A stretch of 62,951 nucleotides of DNA, counting the filler, from Reticulomyxa filosa (Eukaryota; Protista; Foraminifera), in the NCBI GenBank assembly GCA_000512085.1. It is 17 parts of 17 records of this genome, joined end to end, with 100 filler letters (N's around TTAATTAATTAA, not from the genome) between each part and the next. Parts side by side here need not be neighbours in the genome. Positions count along the whole stretch, not along the records: positions 8,825 to 11,994 come from ASPP01026698.1; 16 more parts are not named here. The stretch is one strand, 5' to 3'. Below are positions 3,847 to 25,964 of this stretch, in pieces. The translations under genes were made by a program, and so were the position numbers. The notes under the pieces are model-generated. The model ran no database searches. It saw only the letters and a program-made list of their open reading frames with translations, and was not told the origin of the DNA. How positions within the stretch are numbered: position 1 is the stretch's first letter; every line of letters starts with the position of its first letter.

Positions 3847-4548
3847 ATGTTCTTGAATGAAGAAGAAGAAGAAGAAGAAAAAAAACTGGAAACGTTTTCC
3901 AGTTCAAGTTGTTATAACAAAGAGTGGGTTTCGTTGGTCAACAAACCACAGAAACTGAACACGCTACTATGCTGTCTTTGCAATGAAATTGCAAATAATG
4001 CAATGGAATTACAATGTGACGAGCATGAGGATGCAGAACAAACATATTTGGTTGGAGAAGAATGCTTACAAAATTACTTGAAACAAAACAATGAAAAATG
4101 TCCAATTAAACAGCATGACCATTGCAAATTTTCGAAAAATAGAGTAGTAAGACAACAGACTTCAGAATTATTAGTGATTTGTCCTCGACAATATAACGCG
4201 CAAAAAAGTCAGTCGAATGAAGAGATAACACCAGGAGAGAAAGAAGACTACGAAAGCGAGTTAAGGAATAAATGTAATTTCAAAGGAAAAATAAAAGAAG
4301 TTGAAAATCATTTGAAATCATGCCAATTAATGACAATTCAACAAATTATTTCCTCGTTCAAGGAGTTGCAATTGCAATTCGAAATTGAAAAAGTGCAAGC
4401 AGTTTTGTCATTTATGTTTATTATCAATAAATGAACAAAAGACAAAACAACACACAAATTTATAAAAAAAAAAAAAAAAAAGGGAGAAAAAAATCGAACA
4501 GCTCAAAGAAAATGATAACAAACAGACGAAACAAATTCAACAACTTAA
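3847..4548 (+). CDS. RING-like/TRAF-type zinc-binding N-terminal region plus coiled coil; 3' end truncated by gap
   Basis: CCLCNEIANNAMELQC..H...GEECL..YL....KCPI, then ICPR...CNFKGKIKEVENHLKSC, as in the TRAF RING + zinc-finger arrangement; short coiled-coil exon ~4482-4548. Confidence 0.7.
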
Positions 4549-4734: not shown

Positions 4735-7700
4735 GTGACATGTCGAAGTCATGTGTTAAATGATGAAGATATTAAACATGTTTTAATTGATTCAAAAGAC
4801 ATGATAACAACATCAATGATATATTTATGGCCTTTTTCAAAGGAACAAATGAATGGATATATTGATAAATTTGTAAAAATGAATAAAAAAAATAAAATGA
4901 ATGACAGTTTGGATTGGACAATACAACAATATGGAGAAACATTGAAAAATTATCCAAATTTAAATAAAATGATAGAAGAACCATTTTTACTTCGAATGAT
5001 ATTAACTGTATTACCGTCATTGATGAAACAACATGCAATTGGGACTAAAATATCAAAAGCGCAAGTATTCGAAGCATTTAATGAACAATGGATTGATATT
5101 CATGTGAAAAATATTTCAGATAAATTATCAGAATTAAGAATTCAAACAAATCCCAAAAAAATCAAATTTGCATTTCAACAATATTGTCAAGATTTAGGGT
5201 TTGAAATGTTTATTCAAGGAAATCAAGTTGCAACTGAAAATGATTATAAAGAATATGAAAATAATGATCTTTGGATTAAATTAGATTCAAAAATGGAGAC
5301 AGAAATTAAAAGTGAGGAGGAGAAAACCGAACCAAAGACACAGAGTTTTTGGGACAGATATTTTGGTAGTGGCAATGCGACTAAAGATGTATCAAAAAGG
5401 ACAGATGATGACATAACAACAAAAATAAATGACACTAATACATCATTGGATATGTGGAAAAAATATTTCAATGGCGATAGTATTGCCAAATATGTATTGA
5501 GAAGAGTTGGTGATAATAAATACCAGTTTTTACATAAATCATGTCAAGAATATTATGCTTCACAAAAAATTATATTTGACATTCTTTCATGGAAGCCGAA
5601 TATTGTTACTGTCGATAATCAACAATTTCAACAACAATTTGAAACACATGTTCAAAAATTATCTATCAATCATAAATTATTGAATGAAGAATTGGAAATT
5701 ATTCAATTTATTGCAGAGAGGATTCATGACAATAATCCGATATTTGTAAATTTAAAATCAAGATTATTTCGAATTATTGAATCATCAAAGAATAATGGAA
5801 ATACTAGCATTGCAGCAGCAAATGCAATCACTATACTCAATTCGGCTAATATTGATATGGACTATCAAAATTGGAATAACATTAAAATTCCTTATGCAAT
5901 TTTGGATCGTGCATTTCTTGAAGGAACCAATTTTAGTAATGCAAATTTGGATCATGTAAGTTTTCATCAAACTTGTTTAACCAAGGTCAATTTCACAAAT
6001 GCATCAATGAATGATATTTACTTTGGAGAATATCCATATTTAGAAGGACATACAGATCTTATATGGCGTATTAAATTTTCACCTGATGAAACAAAAATAA
6101 TATCTTATTCAAGTGATAAAACAATTCGAATATGGGATATATTATTAAGAAAGCAACTTCATGTACTAGAAGGACATTTAGATATAATAATTGTAGCTGA
6201 ATTTTCACATGATGGTTCCAAAATTGTGTCATGCTCACGGGATAATACTGTTCGAATATGGGATGTATTATTAGGTACACAAATTAAACTATTGGAAGGA
6301 CATTCAGATTTTGTGAATGCAGTAGATATTTCATCAGATGATTCTAAAATTGTATCTTGTTCATCGGACAATACTATTCGAATATGGGATATGTCGTCTG
6401 GAAAACAACTTCATCTATTGGAAAAACATTCAGAAACTGTGAGCTCAGTAAAATTTTTACCAGATGATTCTAAAATTGTTTCATGTTCATATGATAGCAG
6501 CATTCGAATATGGGATGTATATTCTGGAACACAACTTCTATTATTAGAAGGACATAAACGTGGAGTATTTGGAATACAATTCATATCGAACGGATCAAAG
6601 GTTATATCATATTCGTGGGATAAAACTATTCGAATATGGGATGCATTAACAGGTCAACAACTTCAATTATTGGAAGGACATACCAATGACATATATGGAA
6701 TTCAATTATCATCAGACGATTCAAAAATTTTATCATATTCAACGGATAAAACAATTCGAATATGGGATTTGTTATCTGGAAAACAGCTACAAGTTCTCGA
6801 AAATCCAAGTATTGTAAATACGGCAAGATTTTCATTTGATGATTCCAGAATTGTATCTGGTTCAGATGATGGTACAATTCGATTATGGAATGTATCATCT
6901 GGAAAACAAATTCAAGTATTAGAAGGACATTCAAGATATGTATCCAATGTGGAATTCTTTCCAAAAGCGTTCAAAATTTTATCATGTTCAGATGATTATA
7001 CAATTCGAATATGGGATATATCTTTAGAAAGAAAAATTCAAGCAACAGAAGAATATTTGGATATTGTAACAACAGTAGCATTTTCTCCTGATGGTTCTAA
7101 AATTGTGTCAGGTTCTTTAGACAAAACAGTACGATTGTGGGATGTACAATCAGGAAGACAAATTTATGTATTTGAAGGCCATTCAGATCGTGTAAGTGAA
7201 GTATTATTTTCTCCAGATGGCTCTAAAATTGTATCTTATTCATGGGATAAAACCATTCGGATATGGGATGTATTATCAGGAAAACAACTTCAATTATTGG
7301 AAGGACACTCAAGTTGGGTGAACAAAGTACATTTTTCACCAGATGGCTCCAAACTTGTGTCATGTTCAAATGATGATACAATCCGAATATGGATTGTATC
7401 ATCAGGAAAACAAATTAAATTGGGTAGACATTTTTCTATTACAACTGAAGCACAATTTTTGCCAGATGGAAATAAAATTATATCTTGTTCATTTGATCGT
7501 ACAATTAGACTATGGGATGCATTATCTAGCACAGTAATTCAGACTTTTAAAGGACATACAGATTACATAAATGGGATACAGCTTTCGCCAGATAGTTCTA
7601 AATGTGTATCATATTCACGGGATGAAACAATTCGGGTATGGGATATATCATCTGGAAAACAACTTTTTCTATTTGAAGGAAATAAAGATGTAACTGATAT

Positions 7701-8187
7701 ACAATTTTCTCCAGATGGTACCACAATTGTGTCTTGTTCAAAAGATAGGACAATTCGATTGTGGAATATGTTAACTGGAAAACAAATTCAAGTATTAAAT
7801 GGACATTCTGATGCAATTCAAGGAATAAAGTTTTCATTAGATGGCTCTAAAATTATTTCATATTCAGAGGATGGGACTATTCGAATATGGGATATATCTT
7901 CAGGAAAACAAATTCAAGTAATAGAAGGACATAACGGAGCTATTAATTGCATACACTTATCACCCGATGGCTCAAAACTAGTATCATGTTCAATAGATAA
8001 AACAATTCGATTATGGGGTAGTAACAATGGTAAAATTGTTGATGTCACTGAGAATAGTGTAGTGCACTATATTTGGAAAGTAGGTAATCAAAGTGGTTTA
8101 TCAATGAAAGGTAGTATTTGGAAAAACACAAAGGGTTTGGAAGATGAACAAAAATTGCTTGTGAAACAACGTGGTGGAATATTTTGA
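4735..8187 (+). CDS. NACHT (C-terminal half) - pentapeptide repeat - 16x WD40 STAND/NLR-like protein; 5' truncated by gap
   Basis: TCR sensor-1, LWPFSKEQM, PFLLRMI, winged-helix FLHKSCQEY; AAANAITILN then pentapeptides (AILDRAFLEGTNFSNANLD); 16 WD40 units counted; C-cap GLEDEQKLLVKQRGG. Intronless. Confidence 0.9.
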   Translation: MTCRSHVLNDEDIKHVLIDSKDMITTSMIYLWPFSKEQMNGYIDKFVKMNKKNKMNDSLDWTIQQYGETLKNYPNLNKMIEEPFLLRMILTVLPSLMKQHAIGTKISKAQVFEAFNEQWIDIHVKNISDKLSELRIQTNPKKIKFAFQQYCQDLGFEMFIQGNQVATENDYKEYENNDLWIKLDSKMETEIKSEEEKTEPKTQSFWDRYFGSGNATKDVSKRTDDDITTKINDTNTSLDMWKKYFNGDSIAKYVLRRVGDNKYQFLHKSCQEYYASQKIIFDILSWKPNIVTVDNQQFQQQFETHVQKLSINHKLLNEELEIIQFIAERIHDNNPIFVNLKSRLFRIIESSKNNGNTSIAAANAITILNSANIDMDYQNWNNIKIPYAILDRAFLEGTNFSNANLDHVSFHQTCLTKVNFTNASMNDIYFGEYPYLEGHTDLIWRIKFSPDETKIISYSSDKTIRIWDILLRKQLHVLEGHLDIIIVAEFSHDGSKIVSCSRDNTVRIWDVLLGTQIKLLEGHSDFVNAVDISSDDSKIVSCSSDNTIRIWDMSSGKQLHLLEKHSETVSSVKFLPDDSKIVSCSYDSSIRIWDVYSGTQLLLLEGHKRGVFGIQFISNGSKVISYSWDKTIRIWDALTGQQLQLLEGHTNDIYGIQLSSDDSKILSYSTDKTIRIWDLLSGKQLQVLENPSIVNTARFSFDDSRIVSGSDDGTIRLWNVSSGKQIQVLEGHSRYVSNVEFFPKAFKILSCSDDYTIRIWDISLERKIQATEEYLDIVTTVAFSPDGSKIVSGSLDKTVRLWDVQSGRQIYVFEGHSDRVSEVLFSPDGSKIVSYSWDKTIRIWDVLSGKQLQLLEGHSSWVNKVHFSPDGSKLVSCSNDDTIRIWIVSSGKQIKLGRHFSITTEAQFLPDGNKIISCSFDRTIRLWDALSSTVIQTFKGHTDYINGIQLSPDSSKCVSYSRDETIRVWDISSGKQLFLFEGNKDVTDIQFSPDGTTIVSCSKDRTIRLWNMLTGKQIQVLNGHSDAIQGIKFSLDGSKIISYSEDGTIRIWDISSGKQIQVIEGHNGAINCIHLSPDGSKLVSCSIDKTIRLWGSNNGKIVDVTENSVVHYIWKVGNQSGLSMKGSIWKNTKGLEDEQKLLVKQRGGIF

Positions 8188-8824
8188 TGTTTTTTTTTGT
8201 TTGAATCAAATTCACTTCTAAATATTTTTGACAATTTTTGTAAAGCCCATCAATTAAAAAAGCTTTCACCCCATAAAAATCGTCACTTTTCAAGTATCTT
8301 TTTTTATCAACTCTTTTGGTAACTGAACTTGTTTTTGTTTAAAGTTATTGTCTTATTACCATTTCAGTAGATACCTTATTTAAATAATTAATATAACAAG
8401 ATAATTTGGAGAAAATGAATCTAAGTTTAAACTTGCTTGGATTTCATTTCAACATAGTCAGGATTTAAATGTAAAGTCGCTCCATGGCAAACAAAAGATA
8501 GGAAAAATCATTAAAAGTTACCAAATTTGATATTGTCAAATACTACAGTAGATTGTAAAAAAAACCGGCATACCTAAATGGCACTATATGAAGAGAATCG
8601 ATTTTCTCCATGAAAAATAAAGATTTAAACCTAATTTTTTTTTTAAATTATACTAATCTTGTAGTTTTTAAATATTAAAATTTTTTTTTTTCTAATTTTC
8701 TTTATTGTTGATATTTTTAATTGANNNNNNNNNNNNNNNNNNNNNNNNNNNNNNNNNNNNNNNNNNNNTTAATTAATTAANNNNNNNNNNNNNNNNNNNN
8801 NNNNNNNNNNNNNNNNNNNNNNNN

Positions 8825-9731
8825 TGAAGAAAAAATGTTTTAGAGATAAAACCAAAGTGTATTTGTTGCACTTTCGTGAATGAAAAATTTGTCTGACACA
8901 AAATGTTTTGTGACAAGGTACGTAACATCAAATAATTGTTTGTTTTTTTTTTGATGAAAAAGCCAACAACAGACTGAGATCGGTGATGGAGTGTTTGGTT
9001 AGTACTGAATTGACATTTTTTGTTGTAAAGTTTTTTGTTAGTATTTTATTTCTGAAATAGGTGTGTTTTTGTTTGATAAGATAGCAAAATTTGATAATGG
9101 TATTGCGAAAACGCGTTGCTTCTTTTTTTGTACAGTTGTATTGTTTGGGATTTTAAAGTGAATTTTTGTTTAATAAAACAATCGACACTGACGTCAAATT
9201 GTTTTTACTGTGAAGAAAAAATGTTTTAGAGATAAAACCAAAGTGTATTTGTTGTACTTTTGTGAATGAAAAAATTGGCTGACACAAAGTGTTTTGTGAG
9301 ATAGTTACGTAACACCAAATAATTGTTTGTTTTTTTTTTGATGAAAAAGCCACCCACAGACTGAGATCGGTGATGGAGTGTTTGGTTAGACTGAATTGAC
9401 ATTTTTTGTTGTAAAGTTTTTTGTTAGTATTTTATTTCTGAAATAAGTGTGTTTTTGTTTGATAGGATAGCAAAATTTGATAATGTATTTACTAGCAACG
9501 CGTTCATAAAAATTAGTGTAACGCGTTTTCGCAATACCAAAGGTTCAATTCTCGAATTTGAAGTTTTTAACATTATTGCTTCTTTTTTTGTAATTTGATT
9601 TTACGTGACTAAAATAAAGCATTCTCTTTAAGAAAGCTAGTTACAGTAAAAACAATTTGACGTCAATGTCGATTGTTTTATTGAACAAAAATTCCTTTAA
9701 AATCCCAAACAATACAACTGTACAAAAAAAG
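8825..9731. repeat. Composite repeat: direct duplication (8825-9099 / 9211-9486) with inverted repeats (9098-9117 / 9520-9539 and 9122-9211 / 9643-9731)
   Basis: Read directly: near-identical ~275-nt direct copies, a perfect 20-bp inverted pair and a ~90-bp near-perfect inverted pair. Confidence 0.9.
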
Positions 9732-11539
9732 GGTCTTAACTGTCAACAAGAAATATATATTCCTTTTATAGTATTGTGACAAACAACTAAACAACGTAAA
9801 ATGGGTTAAGTTTTTTTCTTGGTCTATACCTTTTTGTTTCCCCTTTTTTTTTGTAAAAATTCATGGAAACACCCCATTACATTTTGGATAACGCCAGGTT
9901 GAAAAACAAACTTATAACAAAAACTAATCAACAGTTTAGATGTTATAATGTTTGAAATTATTATTCACTAGAAACATTTGTGGTTTTCTTTTACATTAAA
10001 TTATTTTTATTCATTAGTTTCAAATATTTGCAATATCTGAATATATTTAATTACATTATATTGCTGTGCAGAAACACTTCCTTAGGAGATTTACAAACAA
10101 CAATTGCACAATTACACATGCTTTCTCAAAAGGAGATCTCACTAAAAAATGTATTTCTTGACAATTTTACACTTCAACACTTTGCAACTATTGTATCTAC
10201 AAAACCTTTTTGACTAAATTTCTTTTTTGCGTGAAAAATAATGTTTATTAATACATTCAATGATATCAAATGATATCAATTTTCATATCTTTTAAATATG
10301 CTGAATGTTTTTGAAAAACAAGTTAATGAGTTTATTACCAGAAGAATCAAATATTTTTTTAATATTTTGTTATCAATATTTCATTTATTAAAAATATTGT
10401 TGAAATTACCACAAAAGATAAGTTCTATTTGTGATAAAAGAAAGTTTGTTAAGTTTTTGGGAAAGTAGACGTTCAGTTCGAACAGCAATCATTTTAAGGG
10501 GAAAAAAAGTATTCTTCGCAGCTTTGGGGTTTTCTAAAAGTGTCTTTGTCACTGTATGCCCTTGACATGGAGTTCACACTACACACAGTACGTTGAAGAA
10601 TTGTTTTTTTCTTTAATTGAAAATTTTTTTCGCAATGTATATTAGTAGAAAAAAATCTACAAATGATTTTTTTTATAATGGAAAAAAACTTGGTCAGCAA
10701 GCAATTCAATTACTTTGCTTGATATTTGTATTTTTTTTTATTTTCAAGCTCATGAAGGATCAATAAAAAATTGAAATGAAATTTGTTTTATTTAATAAAT
10801 ATAAAACTTTGTAATTAGAAATAAGTGTTTCATTTTGTAAAATATTAAGACATAACAACAATAAGGCCCATTTTTTTTCAATATATTTTAATTTGAAAAA
10901 TACTTATAAATGTTTGACAGATGACTTGATTCACCATTTTACGTCGATATTAACATTTGTTTTCTAAGCCTTAATTAATTTATCAAAAATTAGCAAGGTT
11001 TTGTCAAAATATAGAAACATTTAACAGTTGACAAACCACAAATTTGAATATAAAAAAATTATTTGTGAAAATATTATTTGGTAATTAGTAATAAATTGTT
11101 GCTATAGAACATAGATTAATACAAACACATAATGGAATAACACTTTATTATATGAGTATTTGTCTCTTTGTTAGTGAATAGAAAAAAAAAGAAACGTGAA
11201 TCTTTGCAAGAAATCACAGATTGTGCTTATTTTATTTTTTGTATATGAACTACATATTCAATTGCTGATTGTATTCTTTAAAGATAATTTCAATGACAGT
11301 GCAAGTAATTCTTTTTGTGGACGTCTATTTGAAATATCTACTTTTATTTTAATTTTTTTTTCCTTCCTTGGATAAAGCCATGAAAGTCAATACTTTAAGA
11401 AATTACGTTATTTATATTCTCTTTTTTCAATTATGTGCAAACAAAAAATATTCATGTAAAATATCTTTTTTGTTGACTTTTGTTTTTGCAAAGGGTCCCC
11501 TTTTTAAAACTCTTTAAAAACTTCAGCAACATTATCAAT

Positions 11540-11650
11540 ATGGGTAATCGAACTGCAACACAAAAACATTCTGAAAAACAAACCAAGCAAAGCGAACATC
11601 TTATTACCTCATTTCAAACTTTGAAGAACTTGCACAATCGACTTGAACAC
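11540..11650 (+). pseudogene. Truncated 5' fragment of a Kelch-like family gene
   Basis: MGNRTATQ...ITSFQTLKNL matches the start of the Kelch paralogue at 62725 (MGNQNTAFFQILKNL), including the start context. Confidence 0.6.
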
Positions 11651-11994
11651 GCTTGCATCTCCACATATACCTTATGTTTTGGTACATATAATTTAATATT
11701 ATGAAACCGATGATGTGTTTTTGATTGTTTTTCGAAAAAGTCTTTATCTTCTGAAACAACCAAATTAAATTTGTCTGCGTTTTTTATTACACATAAAATA
11801 GTAAATCTCCTAATATCAAATACTCGATTAAAATCTTCATTGTAATCAGATTTAATTTTTTCAGATAATCGTTTCATATCTTTGACTTCCTGCGGTTTTG
11901 CTACTGTAATCGAACACCAAATCTAAAATCTCTTGACTTTTCATTGCATCTTTACTTCGAGCAATTAAATCTTCTAAACTTGTTGCGTGTTGAA
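11650..11994 (-). pseudogene. RelA/SpoT-like nucleotidyltransferase domain fragment (frameshifted, truncated)
   Basis: VKDMKRLSEKIKSDYNEDFNRVFDIRRFTI ... HHRFHNIKLYVPKHKVYVEMQA fits the K..R..EK..DY..D..R..DI.R and vEiQ motifs; upstream frame shifts near 11925. Confidence 0.6.
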
Positions 11995-12094
11995 NNNNNN
12001 NNNNNNNNNNNNNNNNNNNNNNNNNNNNNNNNNNNNNNTTAATTAATTAANNNNNNNNNNNNNNNNNNNNNNNNNNNNNNNNNNNNNNNNNNNN

Positions 12095-19584: not shown

Positions 19585-20656
19585 TTATCCCCATATTCGA
19601 ATGGTTCTATCATAAGAGCACGAAACAATCGCTTCACCGTCGGGGGAGAAGTGAACCCCAATGACATCGTCTGTATGCAAGTCCAGTATTTGCACTTGCT
19701 GACCGGAGGGTATATGCCACACGCGGATGGTTCGATCAGCGGAGCAAGACACGATATGCATTGCATCGAGTGAGAACCTGACACTAGAGACCCATTTGAC
19801 ATGTCCATGAAAGACGCGCAACGCTGCTCCAGACTCGACGCTCCACAGCCGAATGGTCGAATCCATCGCGCACGAAACAACGGTACGTCCGTCGGGAGAA
19901 AACACAGCGTCTCGCACAAAGGCGGTATGTCCCTCCATCTTTTGGAGCTCTTTTCCGGACGAGATCTCCCACACTCGAATGGTCTTGTCATCGGAACACG
20001 ACACAATGCGGTCGCCATTTGACGAAAAGTGAACCTTCCGAACTGATCGCAAGTGTCCTTCGATTACCTTGATTTGATTTGCCAAGGCCACATCCCACAA
20101 TCGAATGGTTTTATCTTTGGAGCAAGACGCAAGCATCGAGCCATTGGGCGAACATTGGAGTCCCTTGATGAGACGTTCGTGACCCTTTAACGTGGTTATA
20201 ACTTGGTTGGTCGAAACGTCCCAAATGAAAATCATTTCACCTGAAAACGAAAATAGAAATCGTCCATCCGGTGAAAAATGCACGCCCCTCATCCACGCCG
20301 AGTCTTTACTCCAAACTTTTAGCTCCTTTCCAGATGTCACCTCCCACAATCGAATCGTTTCGTCCGCCGAACAAGACGCAATCGTCAATCCGTCTGGTGA
20401 AAACTGCGCATCGTCCACTGCACGCGAATGGCCTCTCAATACGTTCATTTGTCGATAATATTTGGCCTTTTTTTTTTTTTTTTGTATACGTGTATGTCAT
20501 GATCCCTTTCTTCACTCTTGTCCTTACTTTCATGAAAATAAAAAATTGTTAGACGAAACATATTTTGTAATGAGTTTGTCAAAATCATGGATCCATCCCC
20601 AATTAATTGCTGCCGTTTGAATCCATGCACGAATAATTGTTTGTACATTTTTTCGA
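19585..20656 (-). CDS. WD40 repeat protein (exons 20656-20560, 20466-19585); 5' truncated by gap
   Basis: Seven GH...FSPDG...SCSxDxTIRxW units; upstream exon carries IIRAWIQTAAINWGWIHDFDKLITKY. Confidence 0.9.
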
Positions 20657-23914: not shown

Positions 23915-24014
23915 NNNNNNNNNNNNNNNNNNNNNNNNNNNNNNNNNNNNNNNNNNNNTTAATTAATTAANNNNNNNNNNNNNNNNNNNNNNNNNNNNNN
24001 NNNNNNNNNNNNNN

Positions 24015-25964
24015 CCTAAATGACCACGAAATTGACATACTTTTAGATTTGTTTCCAAGTCCCATACAGCAATTGTTTCATCATCAGAAGCGGAAACGAT
24101 TCTTTCACCATTTTGTAAAAATTGCACATCATTTACCTCAGAAAAATGTCTTCCTAGCTCTTTTTTCTCTTCTCCAGTGTGTACATCCCATATCCGGATG
24201 GATGTATCCAATGAGGCAGACACAATAATGAGACCGTTTGGAGAAAATTGTGCTCTCTCTACGCTTCGCGAATGTCCTTTTAGAGTTTTTATTTCTTGTC
24301 CTAATTCCAAATCCCATAATCGAATAGTTGTATCAACCGAACATGATACAATCATTTTACCATCTGGTGAAAATTGTGCATCATTAACAGAATCTGAATG
24401 TCCTTTCAACGTTTGAATTACTTTTTGTAATTTGACATCCCATATTCGAATTGTCTTTCCACAAGCTGCAGCAACGTTGGTTCGATCAGGTGAAAATTTC
24501 ACACTTTTTAAACCTAAACGCTCGCGTAATTCTTTGAATGGCTTAAAATACTTCATCTATTTTTGAATGTAATTTTGATAATCATTACTTAAATTTTTTA
24601 AAAAAAAACCAAAGCATACCAAAATATATCGTGAAATAATTATGCTGAGATCGTCAATCCATCCTTTCTTAATAGACAATGAACGAACCCAGTGCTCAAG
24701 TACTGTTGCAATTTGTCTTTGTTTCTATTTTGTTTTAATACAATAATCACAACCAAATACTTAAAAAAAAAAAAAAAAAGGAGTAACTCAACTTTCAACT
24801 TTCTTATTTGAAATCCAGGATGCAGTCCTTTCAAATTTTTTTTACTCTTTTTATGTCTTCAACCTCTCTTTCTCCTTCCTCTATCCTCTTTTCCTCTGCA
24901 ATCCATTGTTTTTCTATTACTGTTTCCTCTTTCATAAACTCACTCACATTAATTCTCATGTGGCATGAGATAGCATCTTTTGCGTCATTTCCTCCTCCAA
25001 TTATATGCACATGTGTCTTATCCATACTCAATACTCCGACACAACGGCCCAATCGAGTGGGTAAATCATGTTGAATGCGTATCCATTTATTTTCTTTGAT
25101 TGAATACTTATGTATTGCTTTAGAATAACCAGTGTCAGTGCCACCATGTCCACCAAAAAATAGAATAACGTCATTGACACACAAATATGCGTATTGATTC
25201 AATGACCGGATTGTTGAACAAACTCTTATGTTTTGAAATCGAAATTTGTTGTTGTTTTCATTATATTCAATGCTTAATCCAGCATCTTTACAAAATAACA
25301 ACATTTCATTCTTATTTTTATTTTTCGGCATTATTTCCAGGTCATTGTCCGTTTTGGACACAAAGCAATGATGCCATATCCATTCATCAATTGGCAATGT
25401 ATTTTGTGTTACATATCGATATGTCTTTAAATTGAATACATCAATTTTCTTTGGAGGATAAGTAATAAACAATAAATGATTCTTACTTCCACCAACTATT
25501 GCACGGACACCATTGTAATCGCTTTCATCTTTACCAATGCAAACTGGTTTATTATACATATCAGTAAGGGGAATCCATTGGTTAAATAGAGTTTTTTCTT
25601 CAGGTGATTTTGGATTATACCAAACACTAATATATTTCATTACCATTGTATGTTTTTTCTGAGTTTGATATTGTCCACCAAGAGACAATAAAGTGATAAT
25701 ATCTGCAGAACTCTCGTTCACTAATTTAACCAAGGAATGCCCAACTAATTCGACATTATTTGGAAAAGAACAGATATACTTGTACTGATTTTTGGTTATA
25801 TGATAAGAATAACAGTTTCTTGTATGTGCACCTCCACAAATGAGAATTTCATCTTTGTTGGCCACACATTGACCAAGATAAAGCGGAACAGGCAAAGAGG
25901 CCAAAGCCTTAAAAGGGATTGCATTTGCTCTCATTTCTTGTTCAAATATGTCAATGGTAGTCAT
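24015..25964 (-). CDS. Kelch-like propeller - coiled coil - linker - WD40 fusion (exons 25964-24793 with a 1-nt shift at ~24835, 24724-24620, 24556-<24015)
   Basis: Kelch GG motifs (ILICGG, AIVGG, ILFFGG, HIIGG); phase-0 GT-AG introns 24792-24725 and 24619-24557 lead into the WD40 ORF. Confidence 0.8.

What the first reader, a model, noticed from the sequence alone, without database searches (positions are those of the whole stretch)
11650..11994. RelA/SpoT-like nucleotidyltransferase domain in a protist, near an NLR-like gene: candidate nucleotide-signalling immune effector
Seen: K..R..EK..DY..D..R..DI.R.T and H...H...VEMQ motifs in a damaged ORF. Established: these motifs typify the RelA/SpoT synthetase (Pol-beta NTase) fold; RelA_SpoT domains are N-terminal effectors on some fungal NACHT NLRs, and toxic small alarmone synthetases act in bacterial defence. 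Inference: intact paralogues may be fused to NACHT-WD40 proteins such as 4735-8187 (perhaps in its missing middle), giving a RING/TRAF - alarmone synthetase - NACHT - WD40 system. This copy is a pseudogene and one spacer separates it from the NACHT gene.
Basis: partly seen in the sequence, partly recalled or inferred. Interest (0 to 1): 0.78.

Follow-up and report, generated by a model that had tools for sequence, protein, structure and literature searches.

The report
Protist immune receptors with alarmone-toxin domain
The flagged stretch is a broken piece of a large gene family in an amoeboid protist in which a domain shaped like a bacterial alarmone-making toxin is joined to the switch and repeat domains of an immune-type receptor, so the intact copies likely act as sensors that would shut the cell down by spending ATP once triggered.

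Summary
The motifs are real. The copy at 11650-11992 (minus strand) is a fragment at a contig end: one frameshifting deletion, one 11-codon deletion, and homology ends after EMQA. It belongs to a family of 108 proteins found, 106 labelled Reticulomyxa filosa. Of the 108, 78 carry a NACHT module and 39 show the full order Cys-rich domain - synthetase - helical domain - NACHT - pentapeptide - WD40. The synthetase core is their best-conserved part (80% mean identity; NACHT 63%, WD40 52%), and 73 of 75 scorable copies keep six core active-site residues. Sequence profile, Foldseek and VIA-align all rank the (p)ppApp toxin Tas1/Apk1 first. The essential G-loop tyrosine is histidine in 64 of 75 copies, so the acceptor is uncertain. 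The window's NACHT-WD40 ORF is a family member, but it lies on another contig and is not this gene; the RING/TRAF part is unsupported. RelA_SpoT-NACHT-WD40 is already listed for fungi, where it is rare; I found no test of it in the passages read. New here: the lineage, the size of the expansion, the Tas1 type, and a signal-peptide-bearing metagenomic relative with the same fusion. No activity, expression or immune role is shown.

The parts
11915..11992 (-). First piece of the synthetase domain (N-terminal helices), cut by the contig end
   Evidence: tblastn 73% to P0011 252-277; coordinates
11650..11913 (-). Second piece of the synthetase domain, in another frame: syn1 (K...R...K), DY..D, syn2 (D..RFT), G-loop (HHRFHN), syn4 (EMQ). 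11 codons are missing between 11791 and 11790; the C-terminal H..YE..R helix is absent
   Evidence: tblastn 70% to P0011 285-382; alignment; coordinates
11995..12094 (.). Artificial contig joint; the gene's 5' part (Cys-rich domain in paralogues) is not in the window
8725..8824 (.). Artificial contig joint between the NACHT-WD40 contig (4733-8724) and the contig of the finding (8825-11994)
4735..8187 (+). Another member of the same family, cut at its 5' end inside the NACHT domain: rest of the NACHT module, pentapeptide repeats, about 16 WD40 repeats. Its own N-terminal domains are not in the window
   Evidence: 76% identity to P0035 over 447 columns; Pfam WD40 16 stretches
3847..4434 (+).
   Evidence: no hit among 108 family proteins, best E 0.11; no Pfam family; separate contig

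Best explanation
The flagged stretch is a broken fragment of an expanded protist family in which a Tas1/Apk-like synthetase domain is fused to a NACHT-pentapeptide-WD40 module, and the intact members likely work as NLR-type receptors whose triggered enzyme would move pyrophosphate from ATP onto an adenosine 3'-OH, most likely making (p)ppApp and draining ATP. Shown: the broken copy, the family, the domain order, the fold, the kept catalytic and NACHT switch residues, and the pattern of a conserved enzyme with a variable WD40 region. Inferred from the STAND/NLR scheme: WD40 binds a foreign or damage cue, the NACHT exchanges ADP for ATP and oligomerises, and the N-terminal enzyme is released or clustered. 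Inferred from the nearest characterised relatives (Tas1/Apk1, Apk2): the product is (p)ppApp and the outcome is local arrest or death of cytoplasm.
For: Architecture: 78 of 108 proteins carry NACHT, 46 NACHT+WD40, 39 the full order. Fold: the AlphaFold model of P0006 (mean pLDDT 76.9) gives Tas1 first by Foldseek (E 8.3e-7, next 1.2e-4) and by VIA-align (Z 11.2, rmsd 3.8, 167 aligned). The domain profile hits only Tas1 among 177,635 PDB sequences (E 8e-5). Catalysis: 73 of 75 copies that cover all motif columns keep K294, K302, D316, R319, E379, Q381 (P0011 numbering); the same positions hold in 97-105 of 105 distant rows. Selection pattern: mean pairwise identity among 39 full-length copies is 0.80 for the synthetase core, 0.61-0.65 for the other N-terminal and NACHT parts, 0.52 for WD40. 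Switch motifs: a Walker A-type motif in 73, Walker B DG[FL]DE in 70 and the winged-helix His in 49 of the 108 (many models are partial). Acceptor: the family reads RFT / FHN / AT at syn2/3/4. It lacks all three (p)ppGpp signatures AVR / SxH / IR and is nearer the Apk signatures RYT / GxN / YH at syn2 and syn3 (PMC12226406, passages). Distant hits include a MuF-fused protein (the Apk2 architecture) and four eCIS-core-fused proteins. The same NACHT type carries other N-terminal domains elsewhere: caspase in P0243, ARM in Mortierellaceae.
Against: No activity, expression or phenotype is shown. The G-loop reads HHRF instead of GYRD: His in 64 and Tyr in 11 of 75 copies, while Tyr stands in 84 of 105 distant rows. 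That Tyr is needed in FaRel2 (Y128A) and CapRel (Y155A) (passages). The Apk syn4 'YH' and the Gly of GxN are missing, and swapping these motifs did not switch specificity in Apk2, so signatures predict the product poorly. In VIA-align Tas1 (11.2) is tied with B. subtilis SAS2, a (p)ppGpp enzyme (10.4). tRNA-modifying toxSAS have no clear sequence signature, so they cannot be excluded. Only 6 of 46 proteins have a WD40 repeat pair at 80% identity or more, unlike HET-E-type sensors.
Confidence: 0.5

Rival explanations
1. [quoted passage not shown]
For: CapRel scores Z 9.3 and its match runs further into the helical domain (model 125-388). The acceptor is adenosine here too, and no sequence signature separates tRNA users. 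CapRel is a fused sensor-toxin used in anti-phage defence. The altered G-loop could reflect a different acceptor.
Against: CapRel ranks 42nd by Foldseek (E 0.013) and is not found by the sequence profile. The K...R...K..DY.GD signature aligns to Tas1.
Confidence: 0.17
2. The enzyme makes (p)ppGpp or another ppNpp as a signal, either a second messenger inside the protist or a way to manipulate engulfed or symbiotic bacteria, as proposed for fungal RelA_SpoT NLRs.
For: SAS1/SAS2/RelP follow closely in the fold search (Z 9.6-10.4). Dyrka et al. propose this use for fungal NLRs (PMC4986451, passages). One paralogue, P0072, looks like a membrane receptor by eye (signal peptide, outer repeats, a hydrophobic segment, then the enzyme), which suits signalling.
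Against: The guanine-type signatures AVR, SxH and IR are all absent. No receptor for such a messenger was looked for or is known to me in this lineage.
Confidence: 0.13
3. The domain keeps the ATP-donor site but has changed its acceptor site, and modifies something else (another RNA end, a cofactor, a protein) or is only a nucleotide-binding module.
For: GYRD has become HHRF, with two extra near-invariant His (H361, H365), across the family including the unnamed relatives P0070, P0099 and P0109. The change is kept, not decayed.
Against: The position is always aromatic (His or Tyr in 75 of 75), and the catalytic Asp and Glu-x-Gln are kept.
Confidence: 0.1
4. The family is not an immune system but a repeat-driven expansion in a genome full of broken copies, and the few working members serve stress or developmental signalling.
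For: Many models are partial or damaged, including this copy and P0112, where the enzyme is cut and joined directly to WD40. The contig carries direct and inverted repeats.
Against: 39 full-length members in separate 90% clusters, an intact core in 73 of 75, and conservation highest in the enzyme and lowest in the WD40 region. Birth and death of copies is usual for NLR families (own knowledge).
Confidence: 0.1

Closest known systems
Fungal NLRs with an N-terminal RelA_SpoT domain (Dyrka et al. 2014, PMC4986451; Sordariales survey PMC12258605)
   Same: Domain order RelA_SpoT - NACHT - WD40 is listed for Gaeumannomyces graminis (passages); proposed as a direct enzymatic effector.
   Different: Rare in fungi: 14 NLRs are 82% of the class, so about 17 (my arithmetic) of 4613 NLRs in 82 taxa, against 78 NACHT-bearing models under one species name here. 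The protist proteins add a Cys-rich domain, a helical domain and pentapeptide repeats, and their enzyme is Tas1-like. Whether the fungal enzyme domain is of the same subtype was not tested.
Tas1/Apk1 (PDB 6ox6) and Apk2, bacterial (p)ppApp synthetase toxins (PMC10083569, PMC12226406)
   Same: Best structural and only sequence match in the PDB; shared K...R...K..DY.GD..D..R.T and H..YE..R motifs.
   Different: About 20% identity. Fused to a NACHT receptor instead of PAAR or MuF delivery domains; no export signal seen in the NACHT-fused protist copies read; G-loop HHRF; syn4 AT instead of YH; activity untested.
CapRel fused toxin-antitoxin (PMC9712102) and tRNA-targeting toxSAS (10.1101/2021.04.30.441581)
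   Same: One polypeptide couples a variable sensor to an autoinhibited RSH-type toxin; same fold (Z 9.3).
   Different: CapRel has no STAND ATPase; its sensor is a small pseudo-zinc finger; its G-loop Tyr is essential and is mostly His here.
NACHT-pentapeptide-WD40 NLRs of Mortierellomycota and Mycoavidus endosymbionts (PMC11291939)
   Same: Same NACHT type and C-terminal architecture: a search with the NACHT-bearing part of P0137 returns family members P0057, P0246 and P0002 and Linnemannia/Mortierella proteins. The paper reports transfer from an endosymbiont (passages).
   Different: The two fungal proteins scanned carry ARM repeats at the N-terminus, and none of the 25 new hits has the synthetase domain.

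Membership tests
RelA/SpoT synthetase (SYNTH, PF04607) | Pol-beta-type RSH synthetase fold | tested here: met
   Top 9 VIA-align rows and top 10 Foldseek rows are all RSH enzymes, model of intact paralogue P0006
RelA/SpoT synthetase (SYNTH, PF04607) | Pfam score at or above 27 bits | tested here: met
   Met by 3 of 9 relatives scanned; five more score 18-22.5 bits and P0072 is not listed; none of 7 more; the window copy scores 11.3
RelA/SpoT synthetase (SYNTH, PF04607) | ATP-binding Lys/Arg, catalytic Asp (syn2), Glu-x-Gln (syn4) | tested here: met
   73 of 75 scorable copies, of 107 aligned
RelA/SpoT synthetase (SYNTH, PF04607) | G-loop tyrosine that stacks the acceptor base | tested here: not met
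   His in 64, Tyr in 11 of 75
Housekeeping (p)ppGpp synthetases | Signatures AVR (syn2), SxH (syn3), IR (syn4) | tested here: not met
   Family reads RFT, FHN, AT against the signatures in PMC12226406
Apk1/Apk2 (p)ppApp synthetases | Signatures RYT (syn2), GxN (syn3), YH (syn4) | tested here: inconclusive
   RFT close to RYT; Asn kept but Gly is Phe; YH absent
Apk1/Apk2 (p)ppApp synthetases | N-terminal PAAR or MuF delivery domain | tested here: not met
   No such Pfam match in the 16 family proteins scanned whole; definition from PMC10083569
Apk1/Apk2 (p)ppApp synthetases | Synthesis of (p)ppApp from ATP | not testable with these tools
   needs biochemistry
tRNA-pyrophosphorylating toxSAS (CapRel, FaRel2, PhRel) | Modification of tRNA 3' CCA; translation-specific arrest | not testable with these tools
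   No clear sequence signature exists; fold match Z 9.3
NLR-like STAND receptors | Effector - NACHT - repeat order in one reading frame | tested here: met
   46 of 108 gene models with NACHT+WD40, 39 complete; gene models, not transcripts
NLR-like STAND receptors | Intact Walker A, Walker B, winged-helix His | tested here: met
   73, 70 and 49 pattern matches among the 108
NLR-like STAND receptors | Ligand-triggered oligomerisation and defence output | not testable with these tools
   needs experiment
HET-E/HNWD-type NLRs | High internal conservation of WD40 repeats | tested here: not met
   6 of 46 proteins have any repeat pair at 80% or more; threshold chosen by me
Fungal RelA_SpoT NLRs | Enzyme domain of the same subtype and common origin of the fusion | not tested
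   No fungal sequence was compared; none of the 20 proteins looked up by name was labelled fungal

The most novel reading that the evidence does not exclude
A rhizarian protist runs a large part of its NLR repertoire through one bacterial toxin chemistry: dozens of NACHT-WD40 sensors with diversified repeats all fire a Tas1-type 3'-pyrophosphokinase, and the whole enzyme-NACHT module was taken over from the secreted effectors of an intracellular bacterium. This would be a eukaryotic immune receptor that kills or signals through (p)ppApp or pyrophosphorylated tRNA, with a remodelled His-rich acceptor loop.
Probability: 0.3. Interest if true: 0.85.

Novelty: new variant of a known kind. Interest (0 to 1): 0.64.

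Why it matters
RelA_SpoT-NLR fusions were noted in fungi in 2014 as a rarity with a guessed ppGpp output; I saw no test of one in the passages read. Here dozens of intact copies exist under one protist name, with the enzyme as the most conserved part. That makes two questions directly testable with a 190-residue domain in E. coli or yeast: can a eukaryotic immune receptor use alarmone chemistry, and which product does it make? A positive result would add (p)ppApp synthesis or tRNA pyrophosphorylation to the bacterial defence chemistries reused by eukaryotes, and would open immunity in Rhizaria. The flagged copy itself is debris; its value is as a pointer to the family.

Tried and rejected
No whole genome is held for the window, so copies were counted from protein databases and no paralogue DNA or dN/dS was available. 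No sequencing run was listed (no RNA holder listed), so the lesions could not be checked against reads. DNA scans found no relative in viral, metagenome or prokaryote genome contigs for the family profile, nor for P0132/P0137; phage and plasmid tblastn gave nothing significant. PADLOC, NCBIfam and PHROGs gave only weak scattered matches. The ESM Atlas gave hits under 0.9, leads only. The Cys-rich domain before the enzyme (pLDDT about 90) had no significant family in whole-protein Pfam scans and no row in the fold searches of the 477-residue model; it was not folded or searched alone and stays unidentified. A CUE/UBA-like look of the optional N-terminal helices (recalled) got no Pfam support. 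The idea that the plus-strand ATG at 11540 starts a kelch-family gene (recalled) got no support. The RING/TRAF link was rejected. The first WD40 repeat count failed on a wrong pattern and was redone. The careful tree did not finish; only the quick tree is reported. No fold search against viral structures was obtained. The original Tas1 paper was not held. Paper searches that found no description of this family: 0 papers each; listings only, none on it by title or abstract start.

Full report
1. The sequence. The window is 17 contigs joined by an artificial N44-TTAATTAATTAA-N44 spacer. The finding lies at the end of contig 8825-11994 (3170 bases, GC 0.27), on the minus strand. The public gene model P0001 matches the ORF at 99% and comes from a contig of the same length; its source labels it Reticulomyxa filosa. 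No whole genome is held.

2. The observation. The motifs are there (coordinates). Against intact paralogues the copy has three lesions: a frame change between 11915 and 11913 with about 17 bases missing, an in-frame loss of 11 codons between 11791 and 11790, and an end of homology at 11650, right after EMQA, so the H..YE..R helix and everything after it are absent. The Gly of DxGRFT (74 of 76 rows) reads Arg. Multi-base deletions of this kind are unlikely to be homopolymer errors (inference), but no reads could be laid on it. No other part of the contig matches the family.

3. The family. A search with the copy gave 81 hits among 134 candidates; a profile of eight intact domains gave 100 among 7993 scored. 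Together they are 108 proteins in separate 90% clusters: 106 labelled R. filosa, including the copy's own model, and two unnamed (P0070, P0099). By local domain searches 91 of 108 have a Cys-rich domain before the enzyme, 78 a NACHT module after it, 46 NACHT plus WD40, and 39 the whole order Cys-rich - synthetase - helical - NACHT - pentapeptide - WD40. These are gene models; many are partial, and pieces of one gene may be counted twice, so 39 is the safe figure. P0002 and P0061 repeat the Cys-rich/enzyme/helical block in tandem. P0072 has no NACHT and looks by eye like a single-pass receptor.

4. The neighbours. The ORF at 4735-8187 starts inside a NACHT domain at its contig's edge and is 76% identical to P0035 over 447 columns, so it is a family member whose N-terminus is missing. 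It is not the rest of the flagged copy: other contig, other strand, and three of its four closest paralogues rank 43-58 for the fragment (P0003 ranks 4). The ORF at 3847-4434 has no relative among the 108 (best E 0.11). The RING/TRAF part of the proposal is dropped.

5. What the domain is. Three of nine relatives reach the Pfam RelA_SpoT cut-off. An AlphaFold model of P0006 from a 21-row alignment (mean pLDDT 76.9, pTM 0.54) matches RSH synthetases: Foldseek ranks Tas1 first (E 8.3e-7), then staphylococcal and Bacillus small alarmone synthetases. Sequence profiles hit only Tas1 in the PDB (E 0.014, 0.0018, 8e-5). The two fold searches share one model and are not independent of each other.

6. 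Is it an enzyme? Of 107 proteins aligned, 75 cover all motif columns; 73 of these keep K294, K302, D316, R319, E379 and Q381 (P0011 numbering). The roles of these positions (ATP binding, Mg-binding Asp, catalytic Glu) are from my knowledge of RSH enzymes. Among 39 full-length copies the enzyme core is the most conserved region (0.80 mean identity; Cys-rich 0.61, helical 0.61, NACHT 0.63, pentapeptide 0.65, WD40 0.52; the WD40 figure is softened by unequal repeat numbers). One feature departs from the rule: the acceptor loop reads HHRF where 78-86 of 105 distant rows read G-Y-R-D (the 105 include four near-duplicates). The key position is His in 64 and Tyr in 11 of 75. That Tyr is essential in FaRel2 and CapRel (10.1101/2021.04.30.441581 and PMC9712102, passages). 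By the signatures given in PMC12226406 (passages) the family lacks all three (p)ppGpp marks and partly fits the Apk marks; the same paper shows that these marks alone do not set specificity.

7. The receptor part. Walker A, Walker B and the winged-helix His are intact in 73, 70 and 49 of the 108. In 418 WD40 repeats from 47 proteins the most variable positions are 4, 5, 7, 8 and 23 (3.2-4.05 bits). These are, by my recall, top-face binding positions, but they vary in most WD40 proteins, so this is only consistent with a sensor role. Only 6 of 46 proteins have a repeat pair at 80% identity or more, so the HET-E type of repeat homogenisation is not the rule here.

8. Relatives and origin. A profile search of 1.84 billion representatives gave 157 hits at E<=0.001, 150 listed. 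Beyond the family come proteins with eCIS-core, MuF, TPR, ankyrin or LRR domains (110 of the 128 new hits scanned), some labelled Triparma or Guillardia. In a quick tree (72 rows, 141 columns, SH-aLRT only, midpoint root; first 60 distant rows of suitable length; P0111 and four duplicates left out; Tas1 not included) the 12 family rows group (92) and join P0132, P0133, P0137 and the long branch P0151 (95). P0137 is an unnamed metagenomic protein with a signal-peptide-like start, ankyrin repeats, the enzyme with a Tyr loop, and a NACHT of the family's own type (E 2e-59). It is the only one of the 108 distant hits with such a NACHT. Its NACHT's nearest relatives are other unnamed proteins, four of five with signal-peptide-like starts by eye and one with a caspase domain, then R. 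filosa, then Mortierellaceae. For Mortierellomycota, transfer of NACHT-pentapeptide-WD40 genes from the endosymbiont Mycoavidus is reported (PMC11291939, passages), and Kibby et al. argue for endosymbiont sources of eukaryotic NACHTs (10.1101/2022.07.19.500537, passages; its supplementary tables of architectures could not be seen and may list RelA/SpoT effectors). That P0137 is bacterial is my inference from its features; no named genome confirmed it, and the direction of transfer is not shown.

9. Mechanism. Most likely the WD40 propellers bind a cue, the NACHT switches and oligomerises, and the N-terminal enzyme is freed to transfer pyrophosphate from ATP to an adenosine 3'-OH. I put (p)ppApp with ATP drain at 0.5, tRNA-CCA modification at 0.17, (p)ppGpp or messenger use at 0.13, an altered acceptor or binding-only role at 0.1, and a non-immune expansion at 0.1. 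Only the anatomy is shown.

10. What is known. Dyrka et al. list RELA_SPOT-NACHT-WD40 in Gaeumannomyces and propose ppGpp-based manipulation of bacteria (PMC4986451, passages). A later fungal survey found no cluster matching that profile with enough coverage (10.1101/2022.03.16.484565, passages). Sordariales have about 17 such NLRs among 4613 (PMC12258605, abstract and passages). Divergent eukaryotic synthetases are noted in PMC3153485 (passages). Apk1/Apk2 are defined in PMC10083569 (passages). PMC12691689 and PMC11559606 were seen as passages only and add nothing decisive. Searches for Reticulomyxa with NACHT or alarmone, and for small alarmone synthetase with eukaryote and NACHT, returned no paper; the library omits most subscription journals, and I did not read the organism's genome paper. 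Earlier notes of this scan mention a foraminiferal Tas1-like domain fused to 14-3-3 and a bacterial NACHT with a separate RelA/SpoT partner; I did not check them.

11. Verdict. Observation confirmed; interpretation right on fold and fusion, wrong on RING/TRAF and on local linkage. A new variant of a known but apparently untested kind: interest 0.64.

Noticed in passing
P0072 (1017 aa): A paralogue without NACHT that looks like a single-pass receptor: signal-peptide-like start, repeat-rich outer part, hydrophobic segment near 430-452, coiled coil, then the Cys-rich, synthetase and helical domains with intact motifs. Could be a real receptor-enzyme or a fused gene model.
   Followed up: partly
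P0002 and P0061: Tandem duplication of the Cys-rich/synthetase/helical block; in P0002 the first copy has lost the DY and H..YE..R motifs, giving a degenerate plus an intact domain.
   Followed up: no
P0137, P0132, P0133, P0241-P0245: Unnamed metagenomic proteins, most with signal-peptide-like starts, with a Tas1-like synthetase, ankyrin/TPR repeats, or a NACHT of this type behind other domains (caspase in P0243). They look like secreted effectors of intracellular bacteria.
   Followed up: partly
P0112: A second broken family member: the enzyme stops a few residues after EMQ-equivalent and runs directly into WD40 repeats, with the NACHT deleted.
   Followed up: no
window 8825-9731: A direct repeat pair with 386-387 base spacing (94-98% identical blocks) and an inverted repeat (9122-9211 against 9643-9731) at the other end of the same contig.
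   Followed up: no
window 11540-11650 (+): An ATG-led frame on the plus strand runs head-on into the point where synthetase homology ends; it may be the start of another broken gene at a rearrangement joint. No match found.
   Followed up: partly
window 3847-4434 (+) and the minus strand at the window's right end: Two related Cys/His-rich ORFs (phmmer E 5e-8) with no Pfam match: a separate repeated family.
   Followed up: no
window 19585-20496 (-) and 23963-24556 (-): Further WD40-repeat ORFs without NACHT in the window; not compared with the family.
   Followed up: no
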